This document shows, in pieces, positions 10,603 through 54,946 of a stretch of DNA of 64,000 bases. The notes under the pieces are model-generated. The model had not been told where the DNA came from and did not search any database. It saw nothing but the letters and a program-made list of their open reading frames with translations. Made by a program: the position numbers and the translations under genes. The DNA is taken from assembly GCA_965221775.1 (NCBI GenBank), contig CBDCSU010000006.1, positions 2,112,001 to 2,176,000 of the forward strand. The letters are read 5' to 3'. The stretch is from Candidatus Latescibacterota bacterium. GTDB taxonomy: Bacteria; Latescibacterota; UBA2968; UBA8231. Positions within the stretch are counted from its first letter, which is position 1; every line of letters starts with the position of its first letter.

Positions 10603-11337
10603 TCAGAGCCCCCGTTCCTGGATGATGTTCTCGGTCACCACGCGGCCGTCGAAGAGGTGGATGATGCGGTGGGCGTGGTCGGCGTAGGCCGGCGAGTGGG
10701 TGACCATGACGATGGTCGTGTCGGACTCGTTCAGCTCCGTGAGCATGGCCATCACCTCGTCGCCGTGGCGGGAGTCGAGGTTGCCCGTGGGCTCGTCGGC
10801 CAGGATCAGCCGGGGCTTGGCGACGACGGCGCGGGCCACCGCCACCCGCTGCTGCTGGCCGCCGGAGAGCTGCTGCGGGAAGTGCTTCTCCCGGTGGGCG
10901 ATCTGCACCTGGTCGAGGGCCTCGGCGACGCGTTGCCGCCGCTCGCCGGCGGGCAGGCCCAGGTAGAGCAGGGGCAGCTCCACGTTCTCGTAGACGGTGA
11001 GCTCGTCGATGAGGTTGAAGCTCTGGAAGACGAAGCCGATCGTCCCCTTGCGCAGGTTGGCGCGGTTGCGCTCGGAGTACGAGGCCACCTCCTCCCCGCA
11101 CAGCCAGTACTCCCCCTCCGTCGGGTTGTCGAGCAGGCCGAGGAGGTTCAGCAGCGTCGACTTGCCGCATCCCGAGGGCCCCATGATGGCCACGAACTCG
11201 CCCTCGTGGATCTCGATGTTGACGTTGTCCAGGGCCGTGGTCTCCACCTCCTCGGTGGTGAAGAGCTTGCGCAACCCCTGGGTCCGGATCAGGGACTCCC
11301 TGTCGTTCCCGTTGCCGTTGGTCCTCTCGTCGGTCAT
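10603..11337 (-). CDS. ABC transporter ATP-binding protein (LolD/MacB-type)
   Basis: [32 protein letters not shown] motifs. Confidence 0.95.
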
Positions 11338-12764: not shown

Positions 12765-12780
12765 CGCAAGATGCATGCCA
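12765..12780 (-). promoter_or_regulatory. sigma54 (-24/-12) promoter of the adaptor-ATPase operon
   Basis: Minus strand TGGCATGCATCTTGCG has exact GG-N10-GC spacing. Confidence 0.8.
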
Positions 12781-22246: not shown

Positions 22247-22337
22247 AGTTCTGTCTCACGCCTTTTCGTTGGGCATCGGAGGAAGGGTCAGCAGCTGACG
22301 GGACGCTGCCTCGACAGGGTCACGGTGCATGGGATTC

Positions 22338-24803: not shown

Positions 24804-24812
24804 CTCAGTTCC

Positions 24813-27260: not shown

Positions 27261-27275
27261 ATCGGATCCTTTCCC

Positions 27276-29741
27276 TTACTCGTACCGCAACGCCCGCACC
27301 GGGTCTGCCCGCGCCGCCCGCCAGGCCTGGTGGCAGGAGCTGACCAGGACCGCCGCCAGCGCGATCGCCGCCCCGGCGGCGAAGTGCCAGGGCGACAGGT
27401 CGATGCGGAAGGCGAAGCCGTCGAGCCAGTCGCGCATCCACCACCAGGCGAGGGGGCTGGCCGCCGCGGCGCCGAGGAGGCCGAGCCAGGCGAACTCGCG
27501 GGCCATGAGGGCGGTGAGGCCGACGACGGTGGCGCCGAGGGCCTTGCGGATGCCGATCTCCTTGGTGCGGCGGCCGACGGCGAGGGCGGTGAGGGCGAAG
27601 GCGCCGAGTGTGGAGATGAGGACGGCGCCGGCGGCGGCCCAGGTGATGACGCGGCGCCAGCGCAGCTCGTCGCGGTAGGCCGCCTCCAGGTCCTGCTGCA
27701 GGAAGGAGAAGTCGAAGTCGGAGTAGTTGACGACGCCGTTCCAGGCCTGCCGCAGGTGTTGCAGGACCTCCTGCAGGTCGCCCGGCTTGACGCGCACGAG
27801 CATCAGCTCGCCTTCGCCGGGCAGGCCGGGATGGAGGGCCAGCAGCCCGGGCGGGCTCTCCTCGTAGCCGGACTCGAAGGTGAAGTCCTTGACCACGCCG
27901 ACGATGCGGTAGTGGCCCCGGGACTTGCGGCCCGAGGGAGAGACGCGCATCAGCTCCACCGTCTCGCCGATGGGATCGGCGAGTCCGAGGCGGGAGACGG
28001 AACTCTCGGAGATGAGGACCACGCTCTCCTTGTCGCCCTTGGCGGGCGAGAAGTCCCGGCCGCGGGTCACCTCCAGGCCCATGGTCTTCACGAACTGGTG
28101 GTCGACCATGAACCGGCGGACCTTCGCCTCGCGGCCCTCCGGGGTCGCGGCCCGGTAGTCGGAGGGATACTCGTCGCGCAGGAAATCGTCGTCCGACAGG
28201 GAGATGGAGGCGATGCGGTGGTGGTTCAGCATGGGTTCCACGAGCCGGATCTGATCGGGGTTGTTGACGGGCTCCGTGTGGACGGCGATGACGCGCTCCT
28301 GGTCGAGCCCCATGTCGCGGGCCATGACGTGGTCGAGCTGGTGGTACATGATCAGGGTGCAGGTGATGAGGGCCACGGAGATGGCCAGCTGCACGCCCAC
28401 GAGGACGCGGCTGATGCGGGTGATCCCGGCCGTGGACAGGCTGCGCCGGATGGCGCTCATCGGCGCCAGGCGGGAGAGGACGAGGGCGGGATACCAGCCG
28501 GCCCCGAGGCTGACGAGCACCAGCAACGCAACCAGCGCGCCCAGCGTTCCCGGCTGGGTCAGCCCCAGGGACAGCTCCTGCGAGAAGGTGGCGTTGAAGG
28601 CGGGCAGGAGCAGCGACGCCAGGGCGCACCCGGCGCCCAGCCCGAGGACGGAGAGCACCGCCGCCTCGCCGACGAATTGCCGCATCAGGTGCCCTCGTCC
28701 GGCGCCGACGGCCTTGCGCACGCCCACCTCCGCCGCCCGCAGCGACGCCCGGCCGATGGCGAGGTTGACGAAGTTGATGCACCCCATGAGCAGGACCGCC
28801 AGGGCGATGCTGCCGAGGATGTAGGAGACGTAGGGGTCCCTCGGCTCGACGACGCCGTGTCCCACCCATCGCAGCAGACCCGTGTCGGAGCGCAGGCCGG
28901 TGAGCGGCTGCAGGCGGTAGGGCGAGGTATCCTCCGGGAAGTCGGCGGGAAGGTCGTCCTCGTGGAGCCGCAGCCAGGTCCGGCCGAGCTGGGCGAGGGC
29001 CGGCGCCAGGTCGGCGGGGTCGGCCCCGGGCTTGAGGAGGACGTAGGCGTTGCAGGTGCCTTCCCACTCGTCCGGGGAGTCCATGAAGAGGAACTCCGAG
29101 TTGTCGAGGGGAAGGAGCATGTTGAACTGGATCGACGAGGTGCGCGGCACGGGGGCCGCCACGCCGGTGATGGTGAAGTCCTCGGCCTTCCCCCAGTCCG
29201 GGGAGACCAGGGAGAGGCTCTGCCCCAGCGGATCGGCCTCGCCGAAGAGGCGTTGAGCCATCTCGTGGCCCAGGACCACGGAGTTGCGCTCCGTCAGCGC
29301 CGTGGCCGCGTCTCCCCGCAGCAGGGGGAAGTCGAAGACCTCGAAGAAGGCGGGATCGACGAGCAGGATCTCCTCGTCGCTGGAGGCGCCGGCGAAGGTG
29401 GTGCGCACAACGCGGTCGCTCTTGTCGCTCCCCTCCCCCGAGCTGAGGCGGACGGTGCGCTCCACGAGGGGGGAGAGGGCCTCCAGCTCGGGGGCGAAGG
29501 CCAGCTCGATCATGTCGGCCGAGGCGACCCGCCCCATCTCCGGCAGGGTGATCTCCATGTAGACGCGGTAGATCCGGTCCCCCTTGCCGTGGAAGCGGTC
29601 GAAGGACCACTCCTGGGAGGCGAAGCGCCAGGCGAGGAGGCAGAAGGCCATGCCCAGGCCGAGACCGGCGAGGTTGATGGCCGTGTGCAGGCGGTGGCGC
29701 ATCAGGTTGCGCCAGGCGATGATCCAATGGTTGCGCAGCAT
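27276..29741 (-). CDS. MacB/FtsX-type ABC permease (member 8)
   Basis: Start MLRNHWIIAWRNL at 29741 with AAAGGAG RBS; close paralog of 22338-24803. Confidence 0.93.
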   Translation of the reverse strand: MLRNHWIIAWRNLMRHRLHTAINLAGLGLGMAFCLLAWRFASQEWSFDRFHGKGDRIYRVYMEITLPEMGRVASADMIELAFAPELEALSPLVERTVRLSSGEGSDKSDRVVRTTFAGASSDEEILLVDPAFFEVFDFPLLRGDAATALTERNSVVLGHEMAQRLFGEADPLGQSLSLVSPDWGKAEDFTITGVAAPVPRTSSIQFNMLLPLDNSEFLFMDSPDEWEGTCNAYVLLKPGADPADLAPALAQLGRTWLRLHEDDLPADFPEDTSPYRLQPLTGLRSDTGLLRWVGHGVVEPRDPYVSYILGSIALAVLLMGCINFVNLAIGRASLRAAEVGVRKAVGAGRGHLMRQFVGEAAVLSVLGLGAGCALASLLLPAFNATFSQELSLGLTQPGTLGALVALLVLVSLGAGWYPALVLSRLAPMSAIRRSLSTAGITRISRVLVGVQLAISVALITCTLIMYHQLDHVMARDMGLDQERVIAVHTEPVNNPDQIRLVEPMLNHHRIASISLSDDDFLRDEYPSDYRAATPEGREAKVRRFMVDHQFVKTMGLEVTRGRDFSPAKGDKESVVLISESSVSRLGLADPIGETVELMRVSPSGRKSRGHYRIVGVVKDFTFESGYEESPPGLLALHPGLPGEGELMLVRVKPGDLQEVLQHLRQAWNGVVNYSDFDFSFLQQDLEAAYRDELRWRRVITWAAAGAVLISTLGAFALTALAVGRRTKEIGIRKALGATVVGLTALMAREFAWLGLLGAAAASPLAWWWMRDWLDGFAFRIDLSPWHFAAGAAIALAAVLVSSCHQAWRAARADPVRALRYE

Positions 29742-29743
29742 GG

Positions 29744-30607
29744 CTATTCTCCTTTGACGAATACCAGTACGCCCCAGTAGTCCGGTTCGTGGAAGGAACC
29801 CGAGGTGGGAGAGACCCCCCACCCGCTGGCTACATCCCCGTCCTTGTATCCGATGATGCCTCCTTCTGCATCGACCAGAGTCTTCCTCACTCCCCGGCCT
29901 TGATCGAAGCGGTTGAAGTTGGCCTTCCACCTGTCGCCGGGCTCAGGCGGGATCGCCTGTTCGCCCAGCACGTCCCTCGCGTTCACCTCGTGGGTGACGT
30001 CATCCCTCTCCCAACTCAACTCCAGGGCCTTCCTGCCCAGGCCGCTCCAGGGAAGGAACAGCTCCACCGTCCACCACTCGTCCCGGTCCGACCGATCCGT
30101 GAGGGTGCCCTCCGCGTAGATGGCGTTCGTGAGATCGGGATCCCAGTCGGTAGTGAAGTTCGTGCCGCCGGCTTCGGGGATGAGGAGGTCCCTCCTCGCG
30201 CTGCGGGGATTGATCGCCACCTGGAGGTAGTTCGTGCCGTCCATGTCCGGGTCGAGGAACAGCTCCACGGTGTCGTCGGTGTACACCGGCCCGTCCCGCT
30301 CGGTGACCTCGGCCTGGATGTGGGCGTCCAGGCAGTGGTACAGGACCATCAACCCCTTGTCGTTCCACAGGGCCTTCACCCGCGTGCTCACCGAGTCGGT
30401 CGCCATCAGGCCGGTGTAGTGCCGGTCGGTGAGGTCGATGGCCGGCGCCAAGGCCCAGCTCTTCTCGTGGGCATGTCCGTCCAGGGTCATCTCCTCCCCG
30501 GTGAATCGGACCTCGTAGGAGAGTCCGGCCGGGTCGGCCGCGGCGGCGGGCAGGACGGCGAGCAACACCAGCACTGCCATGGAGCAACGAGCGAGAGGAC
30601 TCGTCAT
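29744..30607 (-). CDS. Secreted CBM9-like / DOMON-like carbohydrate-binding protein
   Basis: Signal peptide; LDG...E.SW, VKALWN, DDTVELFLDP, WTVELFLPW, GDRWKANFNR, FHEPDYWG; GGAGG RBS. Confidence 0.8.
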   Translation of the reverse strand: MTSPLARCSMAVLVLLAVLPAAAADPAGLSYEVRFTGEEMTLDGHAHEKSWALAPAIDLTDRHYTGLMATDSVSTRVKALWNDKGLMVLYHCLDAHIQAEVTERDGPVYTDDTVELFLDPDMDGTNYLQVAINPRSARRDLLIPEAGGTNFTTDWDPDLTNAIYAEGTLTDRSDRDEWWTVELFLPWSGLGRKALELSWERDDVTHEVNARDVLGEQAIPPEPGDRWKANFNRFDQGRGVRKTLVDAEGGIIGYKDGDVASGWGVSPTSGSFHEPDYWGVLVFVKGE

Positions 30608-30656
30608 GTCGGGGACCTCCGATCTGGACACGGGCACACCTCCGGGTTGATACCAG

Positions 30657-33083
30657 CTACTCCCCCAGTCGTATGTGGTCTATAGGGTTGCTGACCGCCA
30701 CCCTCGCCGAATGGAATGCTACCGGAACGAAGGCGACGGCCACTCCCAGCAGGATCGCAGCCGCGAGAAACTGGGACCAGATATCCACGCGGTAAGCGAA
30801 ACTCTGGAGCCATGTCGACATGCTGTAGTACACGAGAGGCAGTGCAATCAGGTTTCCGACCAGAGCCAATTCCCCGAACTCTCGTACCAACATGAACACA
30901 ACGCGTCCCGTGGAGGCACCGACCACCTTGCGGATGCCGATCTCTCCCTTGCGGCTCTCGGCCCGGTACGATGCCAGACCGAACAAACCCAGGCACGCAG
31001 TGAGCATGGCAAACCCCGCCAGAAGCCCAAAGATGCGGACGTCTTGAGCATCCTGGCGATACAGGTCATCCAGCTCGTCCTCGAGAAATGCGTACGAGAA
31101 GTCGCCCCCAATGGCTGCCACCTTCTCCCACTTCTCTTTGACCAGAGCTATCGTCTCCGGCAACGACTCTTCATCATGCAGCTTGATGAATGTCTTGTTC
31201 ACCGTACTGGCGGGAATCGACTCCGAGTGCCTTACCAGCACCATAGGCCGCACTTCTGCGTGAAGTGTGTGCCAATGGAAGTCCTTGACAACACCGATGA
31301 CTTGTGCCTTGCGATTCTCCTTCCAGAAGGGGAACTCAACCGCCTTGCCGATAGGATCCGCCCATCCCCACTCCCGGGCGGCCCTCTCGTTTATCAGGAC
31401 AGATGACTCGGCAAACTTGCGGCTCTCGGAGGATCCGGACCCGGGGAGGGCCCTCAGATCCATCAACTCCACAAAGTCTCCGTCCACAAACAGCAGATCA
31501 CAGTCAATTGGCTCGGGAGCACTTCCGCCTCCGACACATCTCTTAACTCCCGCCGGAGCCTGCCGCGCCGGGCTGCTGGAGACACCCGTTACGCCGGCAA
31601 TCCGCGGGCTCTCCAGGAGTTCACTCTTGAACAGCCCCAGGTTCCATGGGTTGATCCCTCCCTCGACGACCAGAATCTTGTCCGCTTCGAATCCGAGGTC
31701 CCTCTTCCCGAGGTAGGCCACTTGATCGTACGCCACACCGGCCGTTCCGATGAATGCGGTGGCCAAACCGAATTGCAGCACTGTCATGATCTTGCGCATC
31801 CGACTTTGACTGGCACCGCCAAAGTGGCGGCCCCTCATACTCTCCACTACTCTCAAGCGCGCGAGCATGAGAGATGGGTAGGAACTCGAGACGGCCCCAA
31901 CCAGCAATGCAACTCCAAACATGACCATCCATGTTTCCCAATTGGCGTAGACCCCGGGCCTGAATTTCTCACCAACTACCGCGTTGACGAACGGTACGAG
32001 TGACTCCGCCAAGGGAAAGGCCAAGACCAGCGCTGCCGTTGAGTGGAGGGTTGCCTCGCAATAGAACTGCAGGATCAACGAGCGACGTTCAGCCCCGATG
32101 GCCTTGCGCAGGCCGACTTCCCTCGCACGTCCAATCCCCTGAACGGTGGATATGTTGATGAAGTTGAGGCATCCTATCAGCAAAATGACAGACGCGATGC
32201 CTCCATACCTGTACAGATCACCCAAGGTGCGGGTTGTCTCCCAATCGCCCTCGAGGTGAGAGGGCAGGTGGACCTTGGCCAGCGGCTGAAGGTCCACATT
32301 GCACGTAATGGCCTCTCTGCCTCCGCCGCGGCCAAATTCCTGACACTCGTGGTTGGTCAGTTGCAGCTTGTCTCTTGCTCCGGCAGCGTCAACTCCACTT
32401 GGAAGCACCACGTACAAATGCGCTCGTAGAAGATCGAAGTGACTTGCGCGAAGACCTTCCTGCTCCCGAGAAAAGAGAAAATCAAAGTCGAGATGGGAAT
32501 TGGGCGGGAAGTCTTCGACAACTCCTGAAACAACGGCCCCTATGCCGTACTCGTACGGAAGGTGTATCTCCTGGCCAAGGGGATCGACCTCACCAAAGTA
32601 CCTGGCCGCAGTACTCTCGGTGATTACAACCCGCCCCTTGCCCTCCAAGGCCGTCTCCGGATTCCCCTTTAGCAGAGAGAAGCTGAAGACATCGAAGAAG
32701 TCACCGTCGATGGCTATGAATCTGGATGGCTCTTCGAGGAAACGGTCGCGTCCACTGGTTACCACCACCTCCTCGGAGAGGGCGAACCTGAAGAGCCCTA
32801 CGCTGGACTCAAATTCCGGATACCTGCTACGGAGAGCCCCCATCATGGCAAGCCTGATGGCGCCAAGATTCCGCTCGGACTCACCGTTGCGCACTTTCAG
32901 AGTCACCCTGAAAGTGCGGTCGGCCTTCTCGTGGAAGCGATCATAGCTCAACTCATGGCGGATCAGGTCCACGACCATGGTGCAGGTAGCCATGCCCACG
33001 GCGAGTCCGAGTATGGCAATGAGTGAATAGAGCTTGCGGCGGGACATGTTCCGCCACGCCACTGTCAAGTAGCTGAGTAGCAT
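30657..33083 (-). CDS. MacB/FtsX-type ABC permease (member 7)
   Basis: Family motifs (GCLNFINI, EVGLRKAIGA, EIGIRKVVGAS); visibly lower GC than its neighbours. Confidence 0.93.
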   Translation of the reverse strand: MLLSYLTVAWRNMSRRKLYSLIAILGLAVGMATCTMVVDLIRHELSYDRFHEKADRTFRVTLKVRNGESERNLGAIRLAMMGALRSRYPEFESSVGLFRFALSEEVVVTSGRDRFLEEPSRFIAIDGDFFDVFSFSLLKGNPETALEGKGRVVITESTAARYFGEVDPLGQEIHLPYEYGIGAVVSGVVEDFPPNSHLDFDFLFSREQEGLRASHFDLLRAHLYVVLPSGVDAAGARDKLQLTNHECQEFGRGGGREAITCNVDLQPLAKVHLPSHLEGDWETTRTLGDLYRYGGIASVILLIGCLNFINISTVQGIGRAREVGLRKAIGAERRSLILQFYCEATLHSTAALVLAFPLAESLVPFVNAVVGEKFRPGVYANWETWMVMFGVALLVGAVSSSYPSLMLARLRVVESMRGRHFGGASQSRMRKIMTVLQFGLATAFIGTAGVAYDQVAYLGKRDLGFEADKILVVEGGINPWNLGLFKSELLESPRIAGVTGVSSSPARQAPAGVKRCVGGGSAPEPIDCDLLFVDGDFVELMDLRALPGSGSSESRKFAESSVLINERAAREWGWADPIGKAVEFPFWKENRKAQVIGVVKDFHWHTLHAEVRPMVLVRHSESIPASTVNKTFIKLHDEESLPETIALVKEKWEKVAAIGGDFSYAFLEDELDDLYRQDAQDVRIFGLLAGFAMLTACLGLFGLASYRAESRKGEIGIRKVVGASTGRVVFMLVREFGELALVGNLIALPLVYYSMSTWLQSFAYRVDIWSQFLAAAILLGVAVAFVPVAFHSARVAVSNPIDHIRLGE

Positions 33084-33100: not shown

Positions 33101-33766
33101 TCACTGGGGCGAGACCTTGCCGTCCAGCAGATGCACCACCCGGCTGCCGTAGCCGGCGTTCTTCTCCGAGTGCGTCACCTGCACGATCGTCGTGCCCTCA
33201 CCGTTCAGCTCCCGCAGCATGGCCATCACCTCCTCCCCCTGCCGGGAGTTGAGGTTGCCCGTGGGCTCGTCGGCCAGGATCAGGCTCGGCTGGCCGATGA
33301 GGGCGCGGGCGACGCCGACGCGCTGCTGCTCGCCGCCGGAGAGCTGGTGCGGGAAGAGGTCTTTCTTGGCCACCATCTGGAAGCGGTCGAGCAACTCGCT
33401 CACCCGCGCCTTGCGCTCGGAGCCCTTCACCTTCTGGTAGAGGAGGGGCATCTCCAGGTTCTCGAAGACCGTCTGCTCGTCGATGAGGTGGTAGGCCTGG
33501 AAGACGAAGCCGATGTGCCGCCGGTGCACCTCGGTGCGCTCCTTCTCCCCCATGCCGCTCACCTCCTCGCCGAGGAAGCGGTAGGTGCCGGCCGTCGGCT
33601 CGTCGAGCATGCCCATGATGTGGAGCAGGGTCGACTTGCCGGCGCCGCTAGGCCCCATGATGGAGACGAACTCGCCCTTCTCCACCTTCAGGTGCACGTG
33701 GCGCAGGACGTAGGTCTTGAGGGAACCGCTCTGGTGGTACTTCTCGATGTCGTTCATCTCGATCAT
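33101..33766 (-). CDS. ABC transporter ATP-binding protein (LolD/MacB-type)
   Basis: [31 protein letters not shown] motifs. Confidence 0.95.
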
Positions 33767-33785: not shown

Positions 33786-36137
33786 TTACTTCGTGTGCAG
33801 GGTCCTTGCGGGGTTGGTCAGGGCAGCTCGCATGGCCTGGCCGCCAACCGTCAGCCCGGCGATGACGAAACAGAAGGCGCCCGAGACCATGAACAGGGGT
33901 ACGCCGACTTCCACGCGATAGACAAAGTCCTGCAGCCAGTGGTCGGCCAAGCCGTAAGCGACCGGCACGCTGAGGAGGAAGGCGATGGCAACGGGCTTGG
34001 CGAAGTCGCCCAGCAGCATGGCGGTGATGCGGCCGGGGGAGGCACCGAACACCTTGCGGATGCCGACTTCCCTGGTGCGTGCTTGAGCGGCGTGAGCGGC
34101 CAGACCGAAGAGCCCTACCAGGGCGACGGCGATGGTCAAAGAGAGGAGGAGGGTGAGAGCGCGTCCCACCTTCAGTTCATCGGAGTAGAAGTGCGCCGTC
34201 ACTTCTTCGAGGGATTGACGCCGGATGGGGGGATCCGGTACGGCGGCCGCCCACTTGTCGTCGATCACTTGGAGGGCTTCTTGGAGATGCCCGGGGCGCA
34301 CTCGCACGATAAGGTTACCCACCTCACGGTCAATCTGTCTCATGACCAGTGGTTCTATCTTGTAGCGGGGACCGAGGAAGTGGAAGTCCTCGATCACCCC
34401 AACGACGCGCCGACCAGGGACATGGGGTATCGTCCCTCCCAGGGGCTGTTCCAATTCCCACCTGCGAACGGCGGTCTCATTTATCACGACCGCTTTGGCG
34501 TCGGCCGGCTCGTCGGTCAGGGGACGTCCCTGGACCATGCGCAATCCCGTGATCTCAACGAAGTCGCCATCTACTGCATTGTACCAGTAGCGGATCCTCA
34601 TTCCCCCTTCTACTGGTATAGACCTTAGTGCCCCACCAAACACTGATTCAGAGAGACTGACCGCGGCGATACGGCTGTCTTGAAGCAACTCAGCTTTGAA
34701 AGCGCGGGCCCGGTCTGCGGTCAGGCCGCCCTCATGGGGATTGCTGATGATGACAGCCTGTTCCGGTTCCAGTCCCAGGACGGAGTTCTCGCGGAACATG
34801 CTCTGGATGAAGCTGACCTGGTGCCATATCAGCAGCGTCATCGTCATCAACGTCGCAGTCACGGTGAATTGCGCCAGTATCAGACCCTGGCGCAGGCGGG
34901 CGCCGCCGATGCGGCCCCCGCGCTCCAGGACCGCCGGCTGAGAGCATGCCACGACCCAGGCCGGGTAGGCGCCCGCCGCCAGTCCGACCGCTGTCGCCAG
35001 CGCCGCAGCCCCGGCGCAGGTCGAGAGAGTCCAGCTGGATGACCATTCAAGGTCGATGCTTCCGATCGCCGGCAGGAACGGAGTCACAGTTTCTGCAATG
35101 GCAACCCCAAAGAGCGTGGCCCCGACGCTGAGCAGTACCGACTCGCACAGGAGTTGGCGAACAAGCTGGCCGCGATGGGCGCCGAGGGCCTTGCGGATGC
35201 CTGTTTCTTGCAGCCGTCCCTGGGCACGCGCAGTCGCCAGGTTCACGTAGTTGAACCCGGCGATCGTCAGGAGCACCATGGCCAGGGTGGCGAACAAAGC
35301 GAGGTGCATGGGGTTGCCACTCGGGCCGGCGTAGGTGGGAGACTCCGTGTCGAAGTGGATCGATTTGAGGGGCTGCAGGGCGTAGGAATCGGTAGCTTGG
35401 TGACGTCCCCCGGATTCCCGGACGATGCCGGGAATGCGCTCAGCTACCGTAGCGGCATCTGCATTGAAGTGGAGCTGTACGAAGGTTTCGTAGGCCGAAA
35501 ATACCCAGGGCCTGGCGTTAGCTTCCCGGAGAGGGCTTTCCTTGTTCAGGGTTGTCAAGGAGAGCAGTGCCGAGAACTGGAGCAATGAGGTAGGAGGTGG
35601 CTTTCCTACGATGCCGGTAACGATACAGTCGAAGTCTTCGTTGTAGCGGATGACCTGGCCCATGGGATCGTCCTCTCCGAATAGCCGCCGGGCCAGTGGT
35701 TCGGTCAGCACCATGCCGTAGGGGCGCGACAAAGCGGTCTTGGAGTCGCCGCGCAGGAGCGTCAGACTGAACACTTCGAACACGCTGGATTCTGTCCAGA
35801 GAGTCCTCTCCTGTATTCCGCTCTGTTCGCCAACCCTGAACAGACGCGGCCTAGCCGGGTAAAAGCGGACTGTCTCCTCGACTTCGGGCACTTGCTCCTT
35901 GAGGGCCGACCCAAGAGGCAACGGAAAAATCCACCCCGTCTGGTCAGATTCGTTCAGTATGCGGTATAGTTGGTCCTTCTTCTCGTGGAAATCGCCCACC
36001 GAGAGCTGGTAGGCCGCCAGCTGGATGACCAGCAGGCAGAGGGCCAGGCCGACGGCCAGGCCGAAGAGGTTGATCGCCGCGTAGCCGCGCTCCCGCCAGA
36101 GGTGGCGGATGGCCGTTGTCAGGTAGCTTCTCAGCAT
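33786..36137 (-). CDS. MacB/FtsX-type ABC permease (member 6)
   Basis: Family motifs; ends NPARTLHTK. Confidence 0.93.
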   Translation of the reverse strand: MLRSYLTTAIRHLWRERGYAAINLFGLAVGLALCLLVIQLAAYQLSVGDFHEKKDQLYRILNESDQTGWIFPLPLGSALKEQVPEVEETVRFYPARPRLFRVGEQSGIQERTLWTESSVFEVFSLTLLRGDSKTALSRPYGMVLTEPLARRLFGEDDPMGQVIRYNEDFDCIVTGIVGKPPPTSLLQFSALLSLTTLNKESPLREANARPWVFSAYETFVQLHFNADAATVAERIPGIVRESGGRHQATDSYALQPLKSIHFDTESPTYAGPSGNPMHLALFATLAMVLLTIAGFNYVNLATARAQGRLQETGIRKALGAHRGQLVRQLLCESVLLSVGATLFGVAIAETVTPFLPAIGSIDLEWSSSWTLSTCAGAAALATAVGLAAGAYPAWVVACSQPAVLERGGRIGGARLRQGLILAQFTVTATLMTMTLLIWHQVSFIQSMFRENSVLGLEPEQAVIISNPHEGGLTADRARAFKAELLQDSRIAAVSLSESVFGGALRSIPVEGGMRIRYWYNAVDGDFVEITGLRMVQGRPLTDEPADAKAVVINETAVRRWELEQPLGGTIPHVPGRRVVGVIEDFHFLGPRYKIEPLVMRQIDREVGNLIVRVRPGHLQEALQVIDDKWAAAVPDPPIRRQSLEEVTAHFYSDELKVGRALTLLLSLTIAVALVGLFGLAAHAAQARTREVGIRKVFGASPGRITAMLLGDFAKPVAIAFLLSVPVAYGLADHWLQDFVYRVEVGVPLFMVSGAFCFVIAGLTVGGQAMRAALTNPARTLHTK

Positions 36138-36168
36138 GCTGGTCCTTTCGGGGCGGGATCCGCCCGCC
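36138..36168 (-). repeat. Conserved intergenic hairpin+RBS spacer, copy 1
   Basis: GGCGGGCGGATCCCGCCCCGAAAGGACCAGC between stop and ATG. Confidence 0.9.
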
Positions 36169-38592
<2,424 letters not shown>

Positions 38593-38621
38593 GCTCGTCC
38601 TTTCGGGCGGGATCCGCCCGT
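38593..38621 (-). repeat. Conserved intergenic spacer, copy 2
   Basis: ACGGGCGGATCCCGCCCGAAAGGACGAGC. Confidence 0.9.
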
Positions 38622-40964
<2,343 letters not shown>

Positions 40965-40994
40965 GCTCGTCCTTTCGGGGCCGGGTCCGCCCGT
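40965..40994 (-). repeat. Conserved intergenic spacer, copy 3
   Basis: ACGGGCGGACCCGGCCCCGAAAGGACGAGC. Confidence 0.9.
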
Positions 40995-43361
40995 CTACCG
41001 CGTGTGCAGAGTCCTCACCGGGTTGGTCAGGGCAGCTCGCACAGCTTGGCCGCCCACCGTCAGCCCGGCGATGACGAAAGAGAGAGCGGCCGACACCATG
41101 AACAGGGCCACGCCGATCTCCACGCGATAGGCAAAGTCCTGCAGCCAGTGGTCGGCCAAGCCGTAAGCAATGGGCACGCTGAGGAGGAAGGCGATGGCAA
41201 CGGGTTTGGCGAAGTCGCCCAGCAGCATGGCTGTGACGCGCCCGGGGGAGGCACCGAAGACCTTGCGGATGCCGATCTCCCTGGTTCGTGCTTGAGCGGC
41301 GTGCGCGGCCAGACCGAAGAGTCCTACCGAGGCTACGGCGATGGTCAGAGAAAGGAGGAGGGCGAGCGCGCGTCCCACCTTCAGTTCATCGGAGTAGAAC
41401 TTCGCCGCCATTTCTTCGAGGGAGTATCGCCGGATGGGGCGGTACGGTGCGGCGGCTGCCCACTTGTCGTCGATCACTTCGAGGGCTTCTCCGAGATGCC
41501 CCGGGCGTACCCGCACGATAATGACACCCACCCAATCGGCAATCTGTCCCATGACCAGTGGTTCTATCCTCTTGCGCGGACCGTGGAAGTGGAAGTCCTC
41601 GATCACCCCCACAACTCGCGCTTGGCCGCGGTAACCGGGAATCGTCTCTCCCAGGGGTTCTTCCAACTCCAGCTTGCGCACGGCGGTCTCATTGATGACG
41701 ACGGCCCTGGCGTCCGCCGGCTCGTCGGTCAGTGGGCGTCCCTTGACCATGCGCAATCCCATGACTTCAACGAAGTCGCCATCTGCTTCATACACGTTGG
41801 CGATCAATGCCCCATCGGGATCCCAATAGCTCCGTCCCGAGCCCTGACCAGGTACTGTCATGGAGAGACTCACCCCGGCGACACGGCTGTCCTGAAGCAA
41901 CTCAGCTTTGAGAGCTCGGGCCTGGTCGGCGGTCAGCCCGCCATCACGGGGGTTGTAGACGACGACAACCTGTTCCGGCTCCAACCCGAGGACGGAGTTC
42001 TCTCGGAGCAGGTCCTGGATGAAACTGACTTGGTGCCAGATCAGCAGGGTCATCGTCATCAACGTCGCCGTAACGGTGAACTGCGCCACTACCAGACCCC
42101 GGCGCAGGCGCGCTCCTCCGATGCGCCCCCCGCGCTCCAGGACCGCCGGCTGAAAGCGTGCCACGACCCACGCCGGGTAGGCACCCGCTGCCAGCCCGAC
42201 CGCTATCGCCAGCAACGCTGCCCCGGCGCAAGTCGAGAGAGTCCAGCGGGGTGACCACTCAAAGTCGACTTCCCCAATCGCAGGCAGGAACGGAATCACG
42301 GTTTGTGCGATGGCAACGCCAAGGAACGTGGCCCCGATGCTCAGCAATACCGACTCTCCCAGGAGTTGGCGAATGAGCTGGGCGCGATGGGCGCCGAGGG
42401 CCTTGCGGATGCCTATCTCCTGCAGCCGTCCTTCCGCGCGCGCTGTCGCCAGGTTCACGTAGTTGAACCCGGCGATCGTCAGGAGCACCATGGCCAGGGT
42501 GGCGAACAGAGCGAGGTGCATTGGGTTGCCACTCGGGCCGAGGCTGTTGCCAGACTCCGTGTCGAAGTAGATCGATTCCAGAGGTTGCAGGGCGTAGGAT
42601 TCGTCAGCTTCGGGCAACCCCTTGGCTTCCTGAACGACATCCGAAATGCGCTCGGCTACCGTAGCGGGATCTGCACCGGGATTCAGCTGCACGAAGGTCA
42701 AGTAGGCCGAATAGTTCCAGCCCAACTGCCGTGCCCCCCTCTCTTTGTCAACAGTGGCCAGGGAGAGCAGTGCCGGGAACTGGAGCAATGAGTTGGAGGG
42801 CGGCTGGCCGAGGATGCCGGTGACCTCGCAATCGAAGGCTTCGTTGTAGCGGATGACCTGGCCCATGGGATCGTCCTCTCCAAACAGCCGCTGGGCCAAG
42901 GGTTCGGTCAGCACCATTGTGTAGGGGCGCGACAAAGCGGTCTTCGGGTCGCCGCGCAGGAGGGGCAAGCTGAACACATCGAAGACGCTGGATTCCGCCG
43001 AAAGAGGCTTCACACGAATCCCACTCTTGTCTCCGACTCTGAGCAGGCGCGGCAAGCTCGACTGGAATTGGACTGTTTCCTCGACTTCCGGCACTTGCTC
43101 CTTCAGGGCCGGCGCAAGAGGCAGCGGCATACTTGAAGAGATCCGGGCATCCCGATGCGCATCAGGCTCTTTCTGTACCAGTATGCGGTACAGTCGGTCT
43201 TTCTTCTCGTGGAAGTCGCCCACGGAGACTTGGTAGGCGGCCAACTGGATGACCAGCAGGCAGAGGGCCAGGCCGAGGGCCAGCCCGAAGAAATTGATCG
43301 CGGCGTAGCCGCGCTCTCGCCACAGGTGGCGGAAGGCGGTGGTCAGATAGTTTGTCAGCAT
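40995..43361 (-). CDS. MacB/FtsX-type ABC permease (member 3)
   Basis: Family motifs; ends NPVRTLHTR. Confidence 0.93.
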   Translation of the reverse strand: MLTNYLTTAFRHLWRERGYAAINFFGLALGLALCLLVIQLAAYQVSVGDFHEKKDRLYRILVQKEPDAHRDARISSSMPLPLAPALKEQVPEVEETVQFQSSLPRLLRVGDKSGIRVKPLSAESSVFDVFSLPLLRGDPKTALSRPYTMVLTEPLAQRLFGEDDPMGQVIRYNEAFDCEVTGILGQPPSNSLLQFPALLSLATVDKERGARQLGWNYSAYLTFVQLNPGADPATVAERISDVVQEAKGLPEADESYALQPLESIYFDTESGNSLGPSGNPMHLALFATLAMVLLTIAGFNYVNLATARAEGRLQEIGIRKALGAHRAQLIRQLLGESVLLSIGATFLGVAIAQTVIPFLPAIGEVDFEWSPRWTLSTCAGAALLAIAVGLAAGAYPAWVVARFQPAVLERGGRIGGARLRRGLVVAQFTVTATLMTMTLLIWHQVSFIQDLLRENSVLGLEPEQVVVVYNPRDGGLTADQARALKAELLQDSRVAGVSLSMTVPGQGSGRSYWDPDGALIANVYEADGDFVEVMGLRMVKGRPLTDEPADARAVVINETAVRKLELEEPLGETIPGYRGQARVVGVIEDFHFHGPRKRIEPLVMGQIADWVGVIIVRVRPGHLGEALEVIDDKWAAAAPYRPIRRYSLEEMAAKFYSDELKVGRALALLLSLTIAVASVGLFGLAAHAAQARTREIGIRKVFGASPGRVTAMLLGDFAKPVAIAFLLSVPIAYGLADHWLQDFAYRVEIGVALFMVSAALSFVIAGLTVGGQAVRAALTNPVRTLHTR

Positions 43362-43391
43362 GCTCGTCCTTTCGGGGCGGGATCCGCCCGT
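43362..43391 (-). repeat. Conserved intergenic spacer, copy 4
   Basis: ACGGGCGGATCCCGCCCCGAAAGGACGAGC. Confidence 0.9.
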
Positions 43392-45728
43392 CTACTCCGT
43401 GCGCAGTGTATCCACCGGGTTGGTCAGGGCCGCCCGCATCGCCTGGTGTCCCACCGTCAGTCCGGCGATGAGGAAGGACAGCGCTCCCGAGACCACGAAG
43501 AGGCCCACCCCCATCTCCACGCGATATGCGAAGTCGTGGAGCCACTGGTTGCCGAGCCACCAGGCGACCGGCACGCTGAGGACGAAGGCGAGGGCCACGG
43601 GCCGGGCGAAGTCGCGCAGCATCATGGCGGTGAGGCCGCCGGCAGAGGCGCCGAAGACCTTGCGCACGGCGATCTCGCGGGTGCGCTCGTGGGCGGCGTG
43701 GGCGGCCATGCCGAAGAGCCCCACGGCGGCGACGGCGATGGCCAGGACGAGGAACGCCGTGAGGGCGCGGCCCACCATCAGCTCTTCGGAGTAGAGTTTG
43801 CCGGCGACTTCCTCGAGGGAGTGGCGCTGGATGGGGCGGTACGGGGCGAGGGCGGCCCACCTTTCGTCGATGACCGCGAGGGCTTCTTCGAGATGCCCGG
43901 GTTGGACCCGAACGATGATGACGCCGGCCCATCCATAGAGTTGTTCCATGACCAGCGGCTCCACCTCGCTTCGCGGACCGTCGAAGTGGAAGTCCTCGAC
44001 CACGCCCACGACGCGCCTCTCGCCAAGGGTGGGGATCGTCTGGCCCAGTGGCTCCTCCAGTCCCATCACCCTGGCGGCGGTCTCGTTGATGACGAGGGCC
44101 TCGGCGTCGGCGGGTGCGTCGGTAAGGGCCCGTCCCCGGACCATGCGCAGGCCCATGATCGGGACGAAGTCGGCATCTACCTGGTACATCCAGATCGTCC
44201 GTCCTTCCGCCATGTGCGATGCTCTGGTGCCCTCGCCCGGTACCGTCATGGCCAGACTCGCCGCGGCGATGCGGCTGTCCTGAAGCAACTCCGTCTTGAA
44301 GGCCCGGGCCTGATCCATGGTGAGGCCGCGGTTTCGAACCACCACCACCTGTTCCGGCTCGGACCCAAGGATGGAGTCCTCGCGGAGGAGGTTGTCCACG
44401 TAGGTGAGTTGGTGCCACATGAGCAGCGTCATCGACAGCAACGCCGTGGTGGCCGTGAACTGGGTCACCACCAGGCCCCGGCGCAGGCGCGCACCTCCCA
44501 GGCGGCTTCTGCCCAGGTTGGCCGTCGGCTGCATGCGCGCCACGACCCAGGCCGGATACGCCCCCGCCACCACTCCGACCGCCACTGCCAGCACCGCGCC
44601 CCCGACGCAGGTAAAGAGCGACCAGGGCAAGGTGGGCAGGTCGAAGGCGGATCCCGCGATGACGTGCATGAGCCGGAGCAGGACCCCTGTCAGGACAGCT
44701 CCCAGGATCGTCGCCGCCGTGCTCATCAGCACCGACTCGCTCAGCAGCTGGCGGATGAGCTGGCCGCGATGGGCGCCGAGGGCCTTGCGCACGCCGATCT
44801 CGTGAATGCGTCTCCCCGCCCGGGCCGTAGCCAGGTTCACGTAGTTGACGCCGGCGATGGTGAGGATCACCACGGCGAGGATGGCGCTCAGGGCGAGGTA
44901 CATGGGATTGCCGCTCGGGCCGATGGTGCTGGACGCCTCCGTGTCGAAGTAGACCGACTTCAGGGGCTGCAGGACGTAGGAATCGGTCACTTCGGGCCAC
45001 CCCGATGCTTCCTTGACGATGCCGGGAATGCGCGCAGCCGCGGCCACCGCGTCGGCACCGGGCGTCAACTGCACGAAGGTCCGGAAGCCCGAGGCACTCC
45101 ATCCGGACTCCATCATCGGATTCACCTCGTACTGCGTGGCGAAGGAGATCAGCGCCGAGAACTGGAGCAGGGAACTGGAGGGCACCCGGCCGGCGATGCC
45201 CGTGATCTCGTAGTCGGACTCTCCCACGTTGACGACCTGCCCCATGGGATCGCTCTCGCCGAAAAGCCGGCGGGCCAGGGGCTCGGTGAGCACGATGGTG
45301 AAGGGACGCGACAAGGCCGTCCCGGGATCGCCGCGCAGGAGGGGGAGGCTGAACATGTCGAAGACGCCGGCCTCGGCGCCGCCGACCGTCTCGTATATCC
45401 CCTCCTTGTCACCGACCCTGAGCAATCGCGGGTAGCTCCAGCCGAAGCGCACCGCCGCCTCGACCTCGGGCAACTGCTCCTCGAGGGTTGGGCCCAGGGG
45501 CACGTGCATCCCCGACGTGAACCCGGCGTCCTGGGCATCCGACCTCAACACGCGGAAGACCCGGTCCTTCTTGTCGTGGAAGTCGCCCACGGAGAGCTGA
45601 TACGCCGCCAACTGGATGACCAGCAGGCAGAGGGCCAGGCCGACGGCCAAGCCGAAGAGGTTGATCGCCGCGTAGCCGCGCTCGCGCCACAGATGGCGGA
45701 GGGCGGTGGTCAGGTAGCTTCTGAGCAT
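43392..45728 (-). CDS. MacB/FtsX-type ABC permease (member 2)
   Basis: Start MLRSYLTTAL at 45728 by homology and RBS; ends NPVDTLRTE. Confidence 0.93.
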   Translation of the reverse strand: MLRSYLTTALRHLWRERGYAAINLFGLAVGLALCLLVIQLAAYQLSVGDFHDKKDRVFRVLRSDAQDAGFTSGMHVPLGPTLEEQLPEVEAAVRFGWSYPRLLRVGDKEGIYETVGGAEAGVFDMFSLPLLRGDPGTALSRPFTIVLTEPLARRLFGESDPMGQVVNVGESDYEITGIAGRVPSSSLLQFSALISFATQYEVNPMMESGWSASGFRTFVQLTPGADAVAAAARIPGIVKEASGWPEVTDSYVLQPLKSVYFDTEASSTIGPSGNPMYLALSAILAVVILTIAGVNYVNLATARAGRRIHEIGVRKALGAHRGQLIRQLLSESVLMSTAATILGAVLTGVLLRLMHVIAGSAFDLPTLPWSLFTCVGGAVLAVAVGVVAGAYPAWVVARMQPTANLGRSRLGGARLRRGLVVTQFTATTALLSMTLLMWHQLTYVDNLLREDSILGSEPEQVVVVRNRGLTMDQARAFKTELLQDSRIAAASLAMTVPGEGTRASHMAEGRTIWMYQVDADFVPIMGLRMVRGRALTDAPADAEALVINETAARVMGLEEPLGQTIPTLGERRVVGVVEDFHFDGPRSEVEPLVMEQLYGWAGVIIVRVQPGHLEEALAVIDERWAALAPYRPIQRHSLEEVAGKLYSEELMVGRALTAFLVLAIAVAAVGLFGMAAHAAHERTREIAVRKVFGASAGGLTAMMLRDFARPVALAFVLSVPVAWWLGNQWLHDFAYRVEMGVGLFVVSGALSFLIAGLTVGHQAMRAALTNPVDTLRTE

Positions 45729-45757
45729 GCGTGTCCTTTCGTGGCGGGATCCGCCGC
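45729..45757 (-). repeat. Conserved intergenic spacer, copy 5
   Basis: GCGGCGGATCCCGCCACGAAAGGACACGC. Confidence 0.85.
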
Positions 45758-48118
45758 CTACTCCGTGCGCAGCGTCTTCACCGGATTGGTCATGGAAGCC
45801 CGGATCGCCTGCTGGCTCACCGTCAGGCCGGCGACGAGGAAGGAGAGGGCGCCCGAGGTCAGGAACAGACCCACGCCGACCTCCACGTGGTAGGCGTAGT
45901 TCTGCAGCCACAGGCCGCCGAGCCACCAGGCGATGGGGATGCTGAGGAGGAAGGCGAGGCCCACGGGCTTGGCGAAGTCGCGCAGCATCATCGCCGTGAG
46001 GCCGGCGACGGAGGCGCCGAAGACCTTGCGCACGCCGATCTCGCGGGTGCGGTTCTGGGCCGTGTGGGCGGCCATGCCGAAGAGGCCCACGAGGGCCACG
46101 GCGATGGCGAAGGAGAGGAAGACGGTGAGGGCGCGGCCCATGAGCAGCTCCTCCATGTAGAGGCCGGCGAAGACCTCCTCGAGGGGCATGCGCTCGATGG
46201 GCCGGTGGGGGGAGAGGTCCGCCCACTTCGCGTCGATCAGCTCGTTGACCTCGTCGAGGTGCCCGGGCCGGGCGCGCACGGAGATTGGGCCGACGTTGGA
46301 GACGGGGGCCATGAGCAGGGGCTCCACCTTCTTGTGGGGGCCGTCGAAGTGGAAGTCCTCGACGACGCCCACGACGCGCAGGTCCCGGCCCATGTAGCCG
46401 GTGATCGCCTTGCCCAGGGGATCCTCCCACCCCATCCTGCGCACGGCGGTCTCGTTGATCACCGCGGCCCGGTCGTCGGAGGGATCATCGGTGAGGGCGC
46501 GGCCCCGGCTCATGCGCAGGCCCAGCATCGCGAAGAAGTCGCCGTCCACCCCGTAGGTCCTCACCTGCACCTTGGCCGCGTCCTCCCCCTGTACTTCGTA
46601 CCAGGTCCTGCTGAGGTTGCCGGGCAACGTCTCGGAGAGGCTGACCAGGGCGACCCGGCTGTCCTGGAGCAGCTCGGACTTGAGGACCCGGGTCTGCTCC
46701 AGCGTCAGTCCCTGGTTGCGGATGACCGTCACCTGCTCCGGCTCGAACCCGAGGGAGGAGTCGCGGCGGAGCAGGTCCTGCACGTAGTCGACCTGGCTCC
46801 AGATGAGCAGGGTCATCGTCATCATGGCGGCGGTGATGGTGAACTGTCCCACCACCAGGACCTGGCGCAGGCGGGCGCCGCCGGAGCGGCGGCGGCGGAC
46901 CACGGCGGCCGGCTGGAAGCGCGCCACCAGCCAGGCCGGGTAGGCGCCGGCCGCCAGTCCGACCCCGAGGGCCAGGGCCGCGGCCCCGGCGGCGGCGGGG
47001 ATCGTCCAGCGCATGAAGGGCAGACCGATGTCCATTCCCGTGATCAGGGCGGGGAGGCGCACCAGGATCTGGGTCGCGGCGGCGCCCAGGAGCGTCGCCA
47101 CGGCGCTGAGCACCACCGACTCGCACAGGAGCTGGCGGATGAGCTGTCCGCGCTGGGCGCCGAGGGACTTGCGCACGCCGATCTCGTGGGTGCGCCGGTC
47201 GGCCCTCGCCGTGGACAGGTTCACGTAGTTGACCCCGGCGATGGCCAGGATCACCGCCGCCAGCACGGCGCAGATCGCCAGGTACAGGGGGTTGCCGCTG
47301 GGACCGAGGTTGTTGGGCACCTCCGAGTCGAAGCGGATCGACTTCAGCGGCTGCAGCTTGTAGGCGCGACCCTCCTCCTCCGGCATACCCGTGAGTTCCT
47401 CGGCCATGGCGGGCAGGCGCGCGGCGATGGCGGCCGGGTCGGCGCCGGGGCCCAGCTGCACGTAGGTGATGAAGGCCCTGCTGCTCCTCGACCCCATCAT
47501 GGCGCGGCTCTCCTCGTACATGGTGGCGAAGGAGAGGAGCGCGGTGAAGTCGAGGAGGGAGTTCGGTGGCGGTTGAGCGACGATGCCCGTGACCTCGCAG
47601 TCGTACTCCTCGTCGACGCGGATCAACTGCCCCATGGGGTCGTCGTCGCCGAAGAGGCGGCGGGCCAGGGGCTCGGTGAGGACCATGGTGTAGGGGCGGG
47701 TCAGGGCCGTCTCCGGGTCGCCCCGCAGCAGGGGGAAGCCGAAGACCTGGAGGACGCCGTCCTCCGCCATCAGCACCCAGTCGGAGAGCGACTCCTTGCC
47801 GGCGAGCCGGAGCTGCGTCGGCCACCTCCCTCGGAAGCGGACCGCTTCCTCCACCTGGGGCAGCTGATCCTCGAGGGCCGGGCCCATGTGGATGGGCAGA
47901 CTCGTGTTGAACCCGCCGCCGCGCCACGCGGGACCCAGGACGCGGTAGACGCGGTCCCCGTTCTCGTGGAAGGTCCCCACGGACAGCTGGTGGGAGGTGA
48001 ACTGGATGATCAGCAGGCAGAGGGAGAAGCCGAGGGCGAGTCCGAAGACGTTGATCGCCGCGTACCCGCGTTCCCTCCACAGCAGGCGAAGCGCCGTTGT
48101 CAGGTAGTGAGCCAGCAT
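45758..48118 (-). CDS. MacB/FtsX-type ABC permease (member 1, first in operon)
   Basis: Start MLAHYLTTAL at 48118 with GAGGAAAGGGA RBS; ends NPVKTLRTE. Confidence 0.93.
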   Translation of the reverse strand: MLAHYLTTALRLLWRERGYAAINVFGLALGFSLCLLIIQFTSHQLSVGTFHENGDRVYRVLGPAWRGGGFNTSLPIHMGPALEDQLPQVEEAVRFRGRWPTQLRLAGKESLSDWVLMAEDGVLQVFGFPLLRGDPETALTRPYTMVLTEPLARRLFGDDDPMGQLIRVDEEYDCEVTGIVAQPPPNSLLDFTALLSFATMYEESRAMMGSRSSRAFITYVQLGPGADPAAIAARLPAMAEELTGMPEEEGRAYKLQPLKSIRFDSEVPNNLGPSGNPLYLAICAVLAAVILAIAGVNYVNLSTARADRRTHEIGVRKSLGAQRGQLIRQLLCESVVLSAVATLLGAAATQILVRLPALITGMDIGLPFMRWTIPAAAGAAALALGVGLAAGAYPAWLVARFQPAAVVRRRRSGGARLRQVLVVGQFTITAAMMTMTLLIWSQVDYVQDLLRRDSSLGFEPEQVTVIRNQGLTLEQTRVLKSELLQDSRVALVSLSETLPGNLSRTWYEVQGEDAAKVQVRTYGVDGDFFAMLGLRMSRGRALTDDPSDDRAAVINETAVRRMGWEDPLGKAITGYMGRDLRVVGVVEDFHFDGPHKKVEPLLMAPVSNVGPISVRARPGHLDEVNELIDAKWADLSPHRPIERMPLEEVFAGLYMEELLMGRALTVFLSFAIAVALVGLFGMAAHTAQNRTREIGVRKVFGASVAGLTAMMLRDFAKPVGLAFLLSIPIAWWLGGLWLQNYAYHVEVGVGLFLTSGALSFLVAGLTVSQQAIRASMTNPVKTLRTE

Positions 48119-48190: not shown

Positions 48191-48206
48191 AGCAACAACC
48201 GCGCCA
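48191..48206 (-). promoter_or_regulatory. sigma54 (-24/-12) promoter of the permease array
   Basis: Minus strand TGGCGCGGTTGTTGCT has exact GG-N10-GC spacing. Confidence 0.75.
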
Positions 48207-54890: not shown

Positions 54891-54946
54891 GGGGGAAGGG
54901 ACGGAAATATACCGCCCCGGTTCCTCGGGCGCGTGCGCCAGCGGGC

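What the first reader, a model, noticed from the sequence alone, without database searches (positions are those of the whole stretch)
33786..48118. Antibody-like pattern: conserved framework with three hypervariable periplasmic loops across six tandem permeases
Seen: TM and framework segments are near-identical, while three loops differ in sequence and length. VR1 after YRIL/FRVL: NESDQTGWIF / TRGEGPHAFSTKSM / GPDFWGGPQYSGSM / VQKEPDAHRDARISSSM / RSDAQDAGFTSGM / GPAWRGGGFNTSL. VR2 lies between FSALLS and TFVQL, with a ~20-aa insertion in member 5 (~37885-37990). VR3 lies between VSLS and DGDF. Variable tracts are visibly more AT-rich (e.g. 34575-34655). Inferred: diversifying selection on substrate-, toxin- or phage-contacting surfaces, giving a specificity repertoire.
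Basis: partly seen in the sequence, partly recalled or inferred. Interest (0 to 1): 0.75.

Follow-up and report, generated by a model that had tools for sequence, protein, structure and literature searches.

The report
Recombining efflux permease array, variable loops
A bacterium found in sponge metagenomes carries six side-by-side copies of a MacB-type transporter gene that have recombined and differ mostly in a few periplasmic loops; in some lineages these loops show a statistical signal of selection for change, so the copies likely handle different, still unidentified cargoes.

Summary
Six tandem genes encode duplicated MacB/FtsX (type VII ABC) permeases, 57-80% identical; 'near-identical framework' overstates 61-87% identity in the membrane part. 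The three loops, the member-5 insertion and the low GC are real. There are five variable stretches, not three. The array starts at a conserved sigma-54 site and runs on through an ATPase and five more distant paralogues; an adaptor, second ATPase and sigma-54 two-component pair lie nearby. Member 5 is a chimera, and loop alleles occur in reshuffled combinations in relatives. Pooled dN/dS is 0.77 in the loops against 0.18-0.29 elsewhere. Site models find dN/dS>1 in the M3/M5/M6 lineage and in one clade of relatives, mainly in VR3 and its symmetry mate VR1b. They find none in the M1, M2/M4 or P8/P10 groups, or in the six alone once the loops get their own rate. The same positions vary across the whole family and match published insertion hotspots of the fold. 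M3's loops are nearly identical in other sponge samples, and no reverse transcriptase was found, so 'antibody-like' is only an analogy. Verdict: a birth-and-death repertoire with episodic loop selection; cargo unknown.

The parts
48192..48206 (-). sigma-54 (-24/-12) promoter-like box, 88 nt before the M1 start
   Evidence: identical 15-mer at -88/-89 in 4 of 4 genomes checked; pattern background 0.002 per 200 nt in this genome
45758..48118 (-). M1, duplicated MacB/FtsX permease, 786 aa; conserved first gene (91% to orthologues), loops under purifying selection
43392..45728 (-). M2, A-type permease, 778 aa
40995..43361 (-). M3, B-type permease, 788 aa; reference for numbering; folded at pLDDT 90
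43125..43178 (-). M3 VR1 (aa 62-79): hairpin between Porter beta1 and alpha1; aligns with the MacB F320 loop
42999..43064 (-).
42702..42758 (-). M3 VR2 (aa 202-220): helix and loop at the Sabre/Porter-beta3 junction
41784..41861 (-). M3 VR3 (aa 501-526): hairpin at the second Porter/Sabre junction; strongest dN/dS>1 signal
41619..41651 (-).
38622..40964 (-). M4, A-type permease, 780 aa
36169..38592 (-). M5, 807 aa, chimera: B-type 5' part, A-type 3' part, break near M3 aa 640 (about nt 36620)
37876..37995 (-). M5 VR2 with an insertion of about 20 aa
33786..36137 (-). M6, B-type permease, 783 aa
43362..43391 (-). one of five similar ~30-nt spacers between the six genes: GC-rich hairpin, then a Shine-Dalgarno-like stretch
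33101..33766 (-). ABC ATPase 2 (LolD/DarD-like)
30657..33083 (-). P7, distant paralogous permease (28-30% to M1-M6)
29744..30637 (-). CBM9-like exported protein within the array
19799..29741 (-). P8-P11, four more duplicated permeases (29-34% to M1-M6; P8/P10 76% to each other)
12905..15632 (+). sigma-54-dependent response regulator and histidine kinase
12766..12780 (-). sigma-54 promoter-like box before the adaptor gene, at the same place in 10 related loci
11375..12634 (-). periplasmic adaptor (membrane fusion protein; TIGR01730 over cut-off, DarC-like below cut-off)
10603..11337 (-). ABC ATPase 1

Best explanation
The six genes are tandem, recombining copies of a duplicated MacB-type (type VII ABC) permease that likely act as interchangeable cargo-recognition subunits of one envelope export pump, and their variable loops likely set which cargo each copy handles. 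Shown: the family and fold, the array, the chimera, the raised dN/dS in the loops, and the conserved linkage to an adaptor, two ATPases and a sigma-54 two-component pair. Inferred from the MacAB-TolC mechanism: each permease would pair with a shared ATPase dimer and the single adaptor, plus one of the genome's TolC-type channels, and use ATP-driven closing of its two periplasmic domains to expel amphipathic peptides or similar compounds picked up at the periplasmic face. Inferred from sequence: unequal crossing-over or gene conversion in conserved stretches adds, removes and remixes copies over evolutionary time; young copies go through bursts of positive selection at the Porter/Sabre junction hairpins, and established copies are then conserved.
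For: Two MacB_PCD and two FtsX domains in each protein scanned; best whole-length fold match YbbP, Z 24.7, rmsd 9.6 over 643 residues. Adaptor then ATPase 1 stand at the head of the permease array in 12 related loci. Conserved sigma-54 boxes. M5 break: chi-square 103-115, 0 of 1000 permutations reaching it. Four-gamete patterns among loop alleles of 120 homologues: 3 for VR2/VR3, 2 for VR1/VR3. Pooled dN/dS over 17 independent pairs: loops 0.77, rest of the periplasmic domains 0.29, membrane domain 0.18, with dS similar at 0.22-0.25. Sabre core controls LRT 0-0.9. VR1 aligns with E. coli MacB Y315/F320 (counted by hand; PMC8277102 section 55).
Against: The loops vary across the whole family: smoothed entropy correlation 0.74-0.76 with 119 distant homologues, and they match published insertion hotspots (PMC8277102). 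No positive selection in M1-like (13 genes), M2/M4-like (7) or P8/P10 (10) groups. The six alone give LRT 11.5 but 0.0-0.1. All 46 genes, gap-free columns only, give LRT 3.1. VR1 and VR2 singly are not significant. Neutral loops on shuffled, 2.5-fold older trees gave M2a LRT 8-57 with omega 2.1-3.8 (real 134; the null fits were under-converged, so these are low estimates). In B-lineage pairs synonymous divergence is also 1.6-3 times higher in the loops, and other moderately variable stretches give LRT 8.2 there. The distant Q and P11 control groups also gave M2a signal (LRT 59 and 10). The PHI test had no control family. No cargo, expression or 3D contact data.
Confidence: 0.5

Rival explanations
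1. Relaxed constraint plus concerted evolution: the loops are the fold's tolerant insertion sites and drift, while gene conversion keeps the framework young and GC-rich. The copies are largely redundant.
For: Family-wide variability at the same sites; pooled loop dN/dS at or below about 1; higher synonymous divergence and lower GC4 in B-lineage loops; false positives in neutral-plus-recombination simulations.
Against: omega>1 survives loop-specific trees and rates in two separate clades; loops of established orthologues are conserved at omega 0.3-0.45; M3 loop alleles are shared across sponge studies.
Confidence: 0.27
2. The loops are docking sites for different periplasmic protein partners or protein cargoes, as YbbP holds TesA and LolC holds LolA. 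Each copy activates or hands on its own partner.
For: YbbP is the best whole-length fold match and binds TesA between its two periplasmic domains (PMC12646458 passages). Exported-protein genes sit inside the arrays: CBM9-like here; a 409-aa repeat protein and an Omp85-like barrel in relatives.
Against: No partner gene per permease: six permeases follow each other without one. A MacA-like adaptor is linked, which points to a tripartite pump.
Confidence: 0.13
3. The loops change to escape an attacker (a bacteriocin, toxin or phage DNA-entry protein) that uses the inner-membrane permease as a receptor.
For: Site-specific omega>1 on periplasm-exposed hairpins.
Against: Escape predicts allele turnover at one locus rather than many co-expressed copies, each a target; M3 loops are nearly invariant among samples from different studies.
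Confidence: 0.07
4. A programmed diversification system (retroelement or shufflon) rewrites the loops, as in antibodies.
For: Only the pattern of conserved framework and variable loops.
Against: No PF00078 match in the 96.8% complete genome, with the control ringing in 3 of 14 genomes; no recombinase among the 31 window ORFs scanned; loop dS near background in the pooled pairs; stable alleles across samples.
Confidence: 0.02

Closest known systems
ADOP-family and darobactin DarB-type duplicated MacB/FtsX permeases (TIGR03434, NF038008); P. gingivalis permease domain 3IS6
   Same: Full-length profile match, same two-domain repeat, multi-copy expansions (102 copies in one acidobacterial genome, PMC10564751 passage; 8-37 matches in 9 genomes of another family of this class). 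The ATPase and adaptor score best on DarD and DarC. 3IS6 is the closest solved domain (Z 22.4, rmsd 3.0).
   Different: Scores are far below the curated cut-offs (227-275 bits against 622; 43-65 against 700). The copies are young (57-80%), tandem, recombining, linked to an adaptor and ATPases, and under a sigma-54 pair.
MacAB-TolC tripartite pump
   Same: Porter/Sabre periplasmic fold, adaptor plus LolD-type ATPase; VR1 aligns with the F320 substrate loop.
   Different: Two permease halves fused and asymmetric, ATPase separate, up to 11 permeases per adaptor, no TolC gene found at the locus.
E. coli YbbAP-TesA
   Same: Best whole-length fold match; fused permease with two periplasmic domains and a separate ATPase.
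   Different: 14% identity; single copy; works with a hydrolase, not an adaptor.
Staphylococcus aureus esaG and streptococcal tipC immunity-gene arrays (PMC9484751, abstract read)
   Same: Tandem non-identical paralogues that recombine through conserved blocks, with gain and loss of copies. This is what the array works like in evolution.
   Different: Unrelated proteins; those neutralise known polymorphic toxins, whereas no cognate ligand is known here.

Membership tests
Type VII ABC (MacB/FtsX) permease, fused two-domain form | Two MacB_PCD and two FtsX domains in one ~800-aa chain | tested here: met
   for M1, M3, M6, P7, P9-P11; for M3 and M5
Type VII ABC (MacB/FtsX) permease, fused two-domain form | Porter/Sabre periplasmic fold on stalk helices | tested here: met
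   model pLDDT 90; YbbP Z 24.7, 3IS6 Z 22.4, MacB Z 18.1
Type VII ABC (MacB/FtsX) permease, fused two-domain form | Separately encoded LolD/MacB-type ATPase | tested here: met
   33101-33766 and 10603-11337
ADOP family (TIGR03434) | Score above curated cut-off of 622.3 bits | tested here: not met
   227-275 bits for M1, M3, M6
Darobactin exporter DarBCD | Scores above cut-offs for DarB, DarC, DarD | tested here: not met
   43-65/700, 152/450, 251/375
MacAB-TolC-like tripartite pump | Linked periplasmic adaptor | tested here: met
   TIGR01730 119 bits over 94.9; at the head of the array in 12 related loci
MacAB-TolC-like tripartite pump | Cognate TolC-type channel | tested here: inconclusive
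   22 PF02321 domain matches (about 11 genes) elsewhere in the genome, none in the window
MacAB-TolC-like tripartite pump | ATP-driven efflux of a substrate | not testable with these tools
   needs bench work
Recombining tandem-paralogue repertoire (esaG-like) | Intergenic recombination through conserved blocks and variable copy number | tested here: met
   M5 chimera and PHI at the floor of 300 permutations; array make-up differs among relatives
Recombining tandem-paralogue repertoire (esaG-like) | Copies recognise different variants of a ligand | not testable with these tools
   no ligand identified
Diversity-generating retroelement target | Reverse transcriptase in the genome and hypervariable target among strains | tested here: not met
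   PF00078 not found in G000, 96.8% complete; M3 loops near-invariant in other samples

The most novel reading that the evidence does not exclude
A sigma-54-induced, combinatorial defence repertoire: up to eleven permeases plug into one ATPase-adaptor-TolC pump, each presenting a paratope-like patch of four or five loops at the Porter/Sabre junctions. Recombination reshuffles the loops and positive selection tunes them against the peptides and natural products of the sponge microbiome, making type VII ABC permeases an evolvable receptor scaffold.
Probability: 0.25. Interest if true: 0.72.

Novelty: new variant of a known kind. Interest (0 to 1): 0.45.

Why it matters
Fused MacB-type permeases are a very large family with almost no known cargoes: 17,309 clusters at 50% identity match M3 at E<=1e-30. 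The 2021 review read here says their binding sites are still uncharacterised (PMC8277102 section 55). This array offers natural near-isogenic variants, a natural chimera and a short list of fast-evolving residues, so it turns the question of what sets specificity in type VII ABC transporters into loop-swap experiments. If the copies are cargo-specific, it would also suggest how a sponge-associated bacterium copes with a chemically defended habitat. If the loops only drift, it is an ordinary paralogue expansion.

Tried and rejected
Programmed hypermutation: rejected. A local mutation hotspot: pooled loop dS 0.25 against 0.22-0.23, rejected in general though B-lineage loops are higher. Assembly artefact: unlikely, since similar arrays occur in other genomes and contigs of other runs match single members at 99% or more. 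Plain M1a/M2a on all 46 genes (LRT 187, 17 sites, 15 in the five loops) was not taken at face value after one search showed false positives. A FUBAR-like grid gave 15 of 87 loop sites against 4 of 670 others at P>0.9, but only 3 of 37 against 5 of 605 after removing gap-adjacent columns. 3D mapping of the loops: no coordinates are returned, so only secondary structure and alignments were used. No RNA holder listed. Three look-ups of earlier findings returned nothing. The Atlas look-up for the 409-aa neighbour gave no answer. No complex prediction was run. Ten paper searches listed no paper on this array or on loop selection in this family; the library lacks most subscription papers, and no supplements were read.

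Full report
What is there. Six intact minus-strand genes, M1 (45758-48118) to M6 (33786-36137), encode 778-807-aa proteins 57-80% identical. M1, M3 and M6 were scanned and each has two MacB_PCD and two FtsX domains. They match TIGR03434 over their length but below its cut-off. A model of M3 from 137 sequences has pLDDT 90 and matches YbbP, the P. gingivalis domain 3IS6 and MacB. The array goes on through an ATPase, P7, a CBM9-like gene and P8-P11. Eleven of the genome's 12 such permeases lie in it. About 7 kb further lie a sigma-54 response regulator and kinase and, divergently, an adaptor and a second ATPase. In 12 related loci adaptor and ATPase 1 stand at the head of a permease array, so the two parts here are likely one rearranged system. 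A sigma-54 box sits 88 nt before M1, identical in 4 of 4 genomes checked, and another before the adaptor at the same place in 10 related loci. Of the 19 named records with 61-79% relatives, 16 are titled Latescibacterota or Latescibacteria and 3 Gemmatimonadota or Gemmatimonadaceae. Of the ten runs holding 0.38 or more of the words, four from three studies are labelled sponge metagenome and six carry coded organism names.

The observation. The loops, the member-5 insertion and the low GC are real. The framework is conserved but not near-identical (membrane domain 61-87%). Five stretches vary, not three. VR1b is the first-half equivalent of VR3. On the model's secondary structure VR1 is a hairpin between Porter beta1 and alpha1; VR1b and VR3 are hairpins where the Sabre leaves beta2; VR2 precedes beta3. 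A review names these two places as the insertion hotspots of the Porter module (PMC8277102 passages). [quoted passage not shown] In the profile alignment E. coli MacB Y315 falls at the start of VR1 and F320 inside it (hand count); the review lists both among residues of a plausible erythromycin site facing the inter-domain interface (section 55). The same positions are the most variable among 119 distant homologues (smoothed rho 0.74-0.76), so the pattern's location is a family trait.

Recombination. M2 and M4 form one type (A), M3, M5 and M6 another (B). M5 is B-like up to about M3 residue 640 and A-like after it; the order A, B/A, B fits one unequal crossover, though conversion of the 3' end fits too. 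PHI-type tests were at the floor of 300 permutations for all five sets, without a control family. Among 120 homologues, 35, 34 and 32 loop alleles form 64 combinations, with 3 four-gamete patterns for VR2/VR3, 2 for VR1/VR3 and none for VR1/VR2, VR1/VR1b or VR3/VR4. Array length and make-up differ among relatives, with M1 first in all three same-genus arrays whose start was seen.

Selection. I used 46 full-length genes from the window and 20 fetched stretches; partial, frameshifted or insertion-split genes, and two loci repeating arrays already in the set, were left out. One B gene has a few out-of-frame last codons. The codon models are my own code, with nucleotide trees rescaled per segment and no multi-nucleotide changes. 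Pooled over 17 pairs, dN/dS is 0.77 in the loops (VR3 1.02), 0.29 in the rest of the periplasmic domains and 0.18 in the membrane domain. M2a beats M1a on all 46. By group the signal is strong in the B lineage (LRT 128, 13 of 84 loop sites) and in 12 A-type genes of other relatives (54), present in the distant Q and P11 groups (59, 10), weak in the six alone (11.5), and absent in M1-like, M2/M4-like and P8/P10 groups. Neutral loops on shuffled older trees produced LRT 8-57 in 5 simulations, so M2a alone is not proof. Giving the loops their own trees, rate and composition, the B lineage (LRT 25-27; 9 nulls 0-1.9) and the other relatives (37-40) keep omega>1; the six alone, M1-like and M2/M4-like groups do not. 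Per loop, VR3 is significant in both clades (30, 13.5), VR1b in B (24), VR4 in the other relatives (11), VR1 and VR2 in neither.

Time scale. In runs X6, X7 and X10 long contig pieces across M3's loops differ by 0-5 bases; one X5 contig has two replacements and two silent changes in VR1, and low-depth X5 contigs differ more over VR2 and VR3. Of five listed differences in M1's VR3, four are silent (only the 40 best-supported of 1844 rows were shown). Contigs drop rare variants. No reverse transcriptase was found. Diversification is therefore evolutionary, not programmed.

Mechanism and comparison. The best reading is a sigma-54-controlled MacAB-TolC-like exporter with interchangeable permeases whose loops likely set cargo range, evolving by birth, death and recombination as esaG arrays do (PMC9484751 abstract). 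Mechanotransmission and the fused architecture are from PMC5985334 passages. A link of sigma-54 to this permease class is already reported for Bacteroidia and others (PMC12316311 passages), and large expansions are known (PMC10564751 passage). PMC3174227 (passages) tested paralogue selection in an acidobacterium without naming this family in the passages seen. The preprint 10.1101/2020.09.24.301986 (passages) ties MacB/FtsX fusions to envelope-stress regulators. PMC12646458 (passages) supports the protein-partner rival. Cargo, assembly and expression are untested.

Verdict. Real, richer than described, and partly as interpreted: a new variant of a known kind. Interest 0.45.

Noticed in passing
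L013 5209-10316 (two genes of 851 and 838 aa); two genes of 866 and 885 aa in L011: In two same-genus genes printed in full, a 55-70-aa low-complexity insertion sits at a sixth site, between Porter alpha2 and beta4 (about M3 aa 250). The two L011 genes are similarly long; their insertion site was not printed.
   Followed up: partly
L025:8700-9929: A 409-aa exported-looking protein with internal repeats sits inside the permease arrays of 9 related loci, with no convincing Pfam or NCBIfam hit; it resembles DUF4097/Toastrack repeats by eye only (recalled, untested). Not found in the window's genome.
   Followed up: partly
L025:17283-18533: A 416-aa Omp85-like barrel gene lies within the arrays of 4 related loci; a 44% homologue is elsewhere in the window's genome. 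It could be an outer-membrane partner.
   Followed up: partly
window 19799-48118: Third-position GC tracks evolutionary rate across the array: M1 and P8 (0.96) have 91-96% orthologues; M3, M6 and P7 (0.70-0.76) have 76-83%.
   Followed up: partly
window 43362-43391 and the four other spacers: A conserved GC-rich hairpin follows each stop codon just before the next ribosome site; the motif search found it only in this array in the genome, 4 matches at up to 3 mismatches.
   Followed up: partly
window 41793 (runs X5, X10): Loose contig ends read as a VR3 allele absent from the six but present in homologues P0073 and P0082, so those samples hold further array members or a related species.
   Followed up: no
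window 51348-55061: A 1237-aa ORF with a UvrD/REP helicase C-terminal part and a long N-terminal part that looks like a PHP-type phosphoesterase by eye; Pfam hit only the helicase.
   Followed up: no
window 17900-19327: AAA_14 + DUF4143 ATPase gene sits between the permease array and the regulator pair and was not found in the related loci searched.
   Followed up: no
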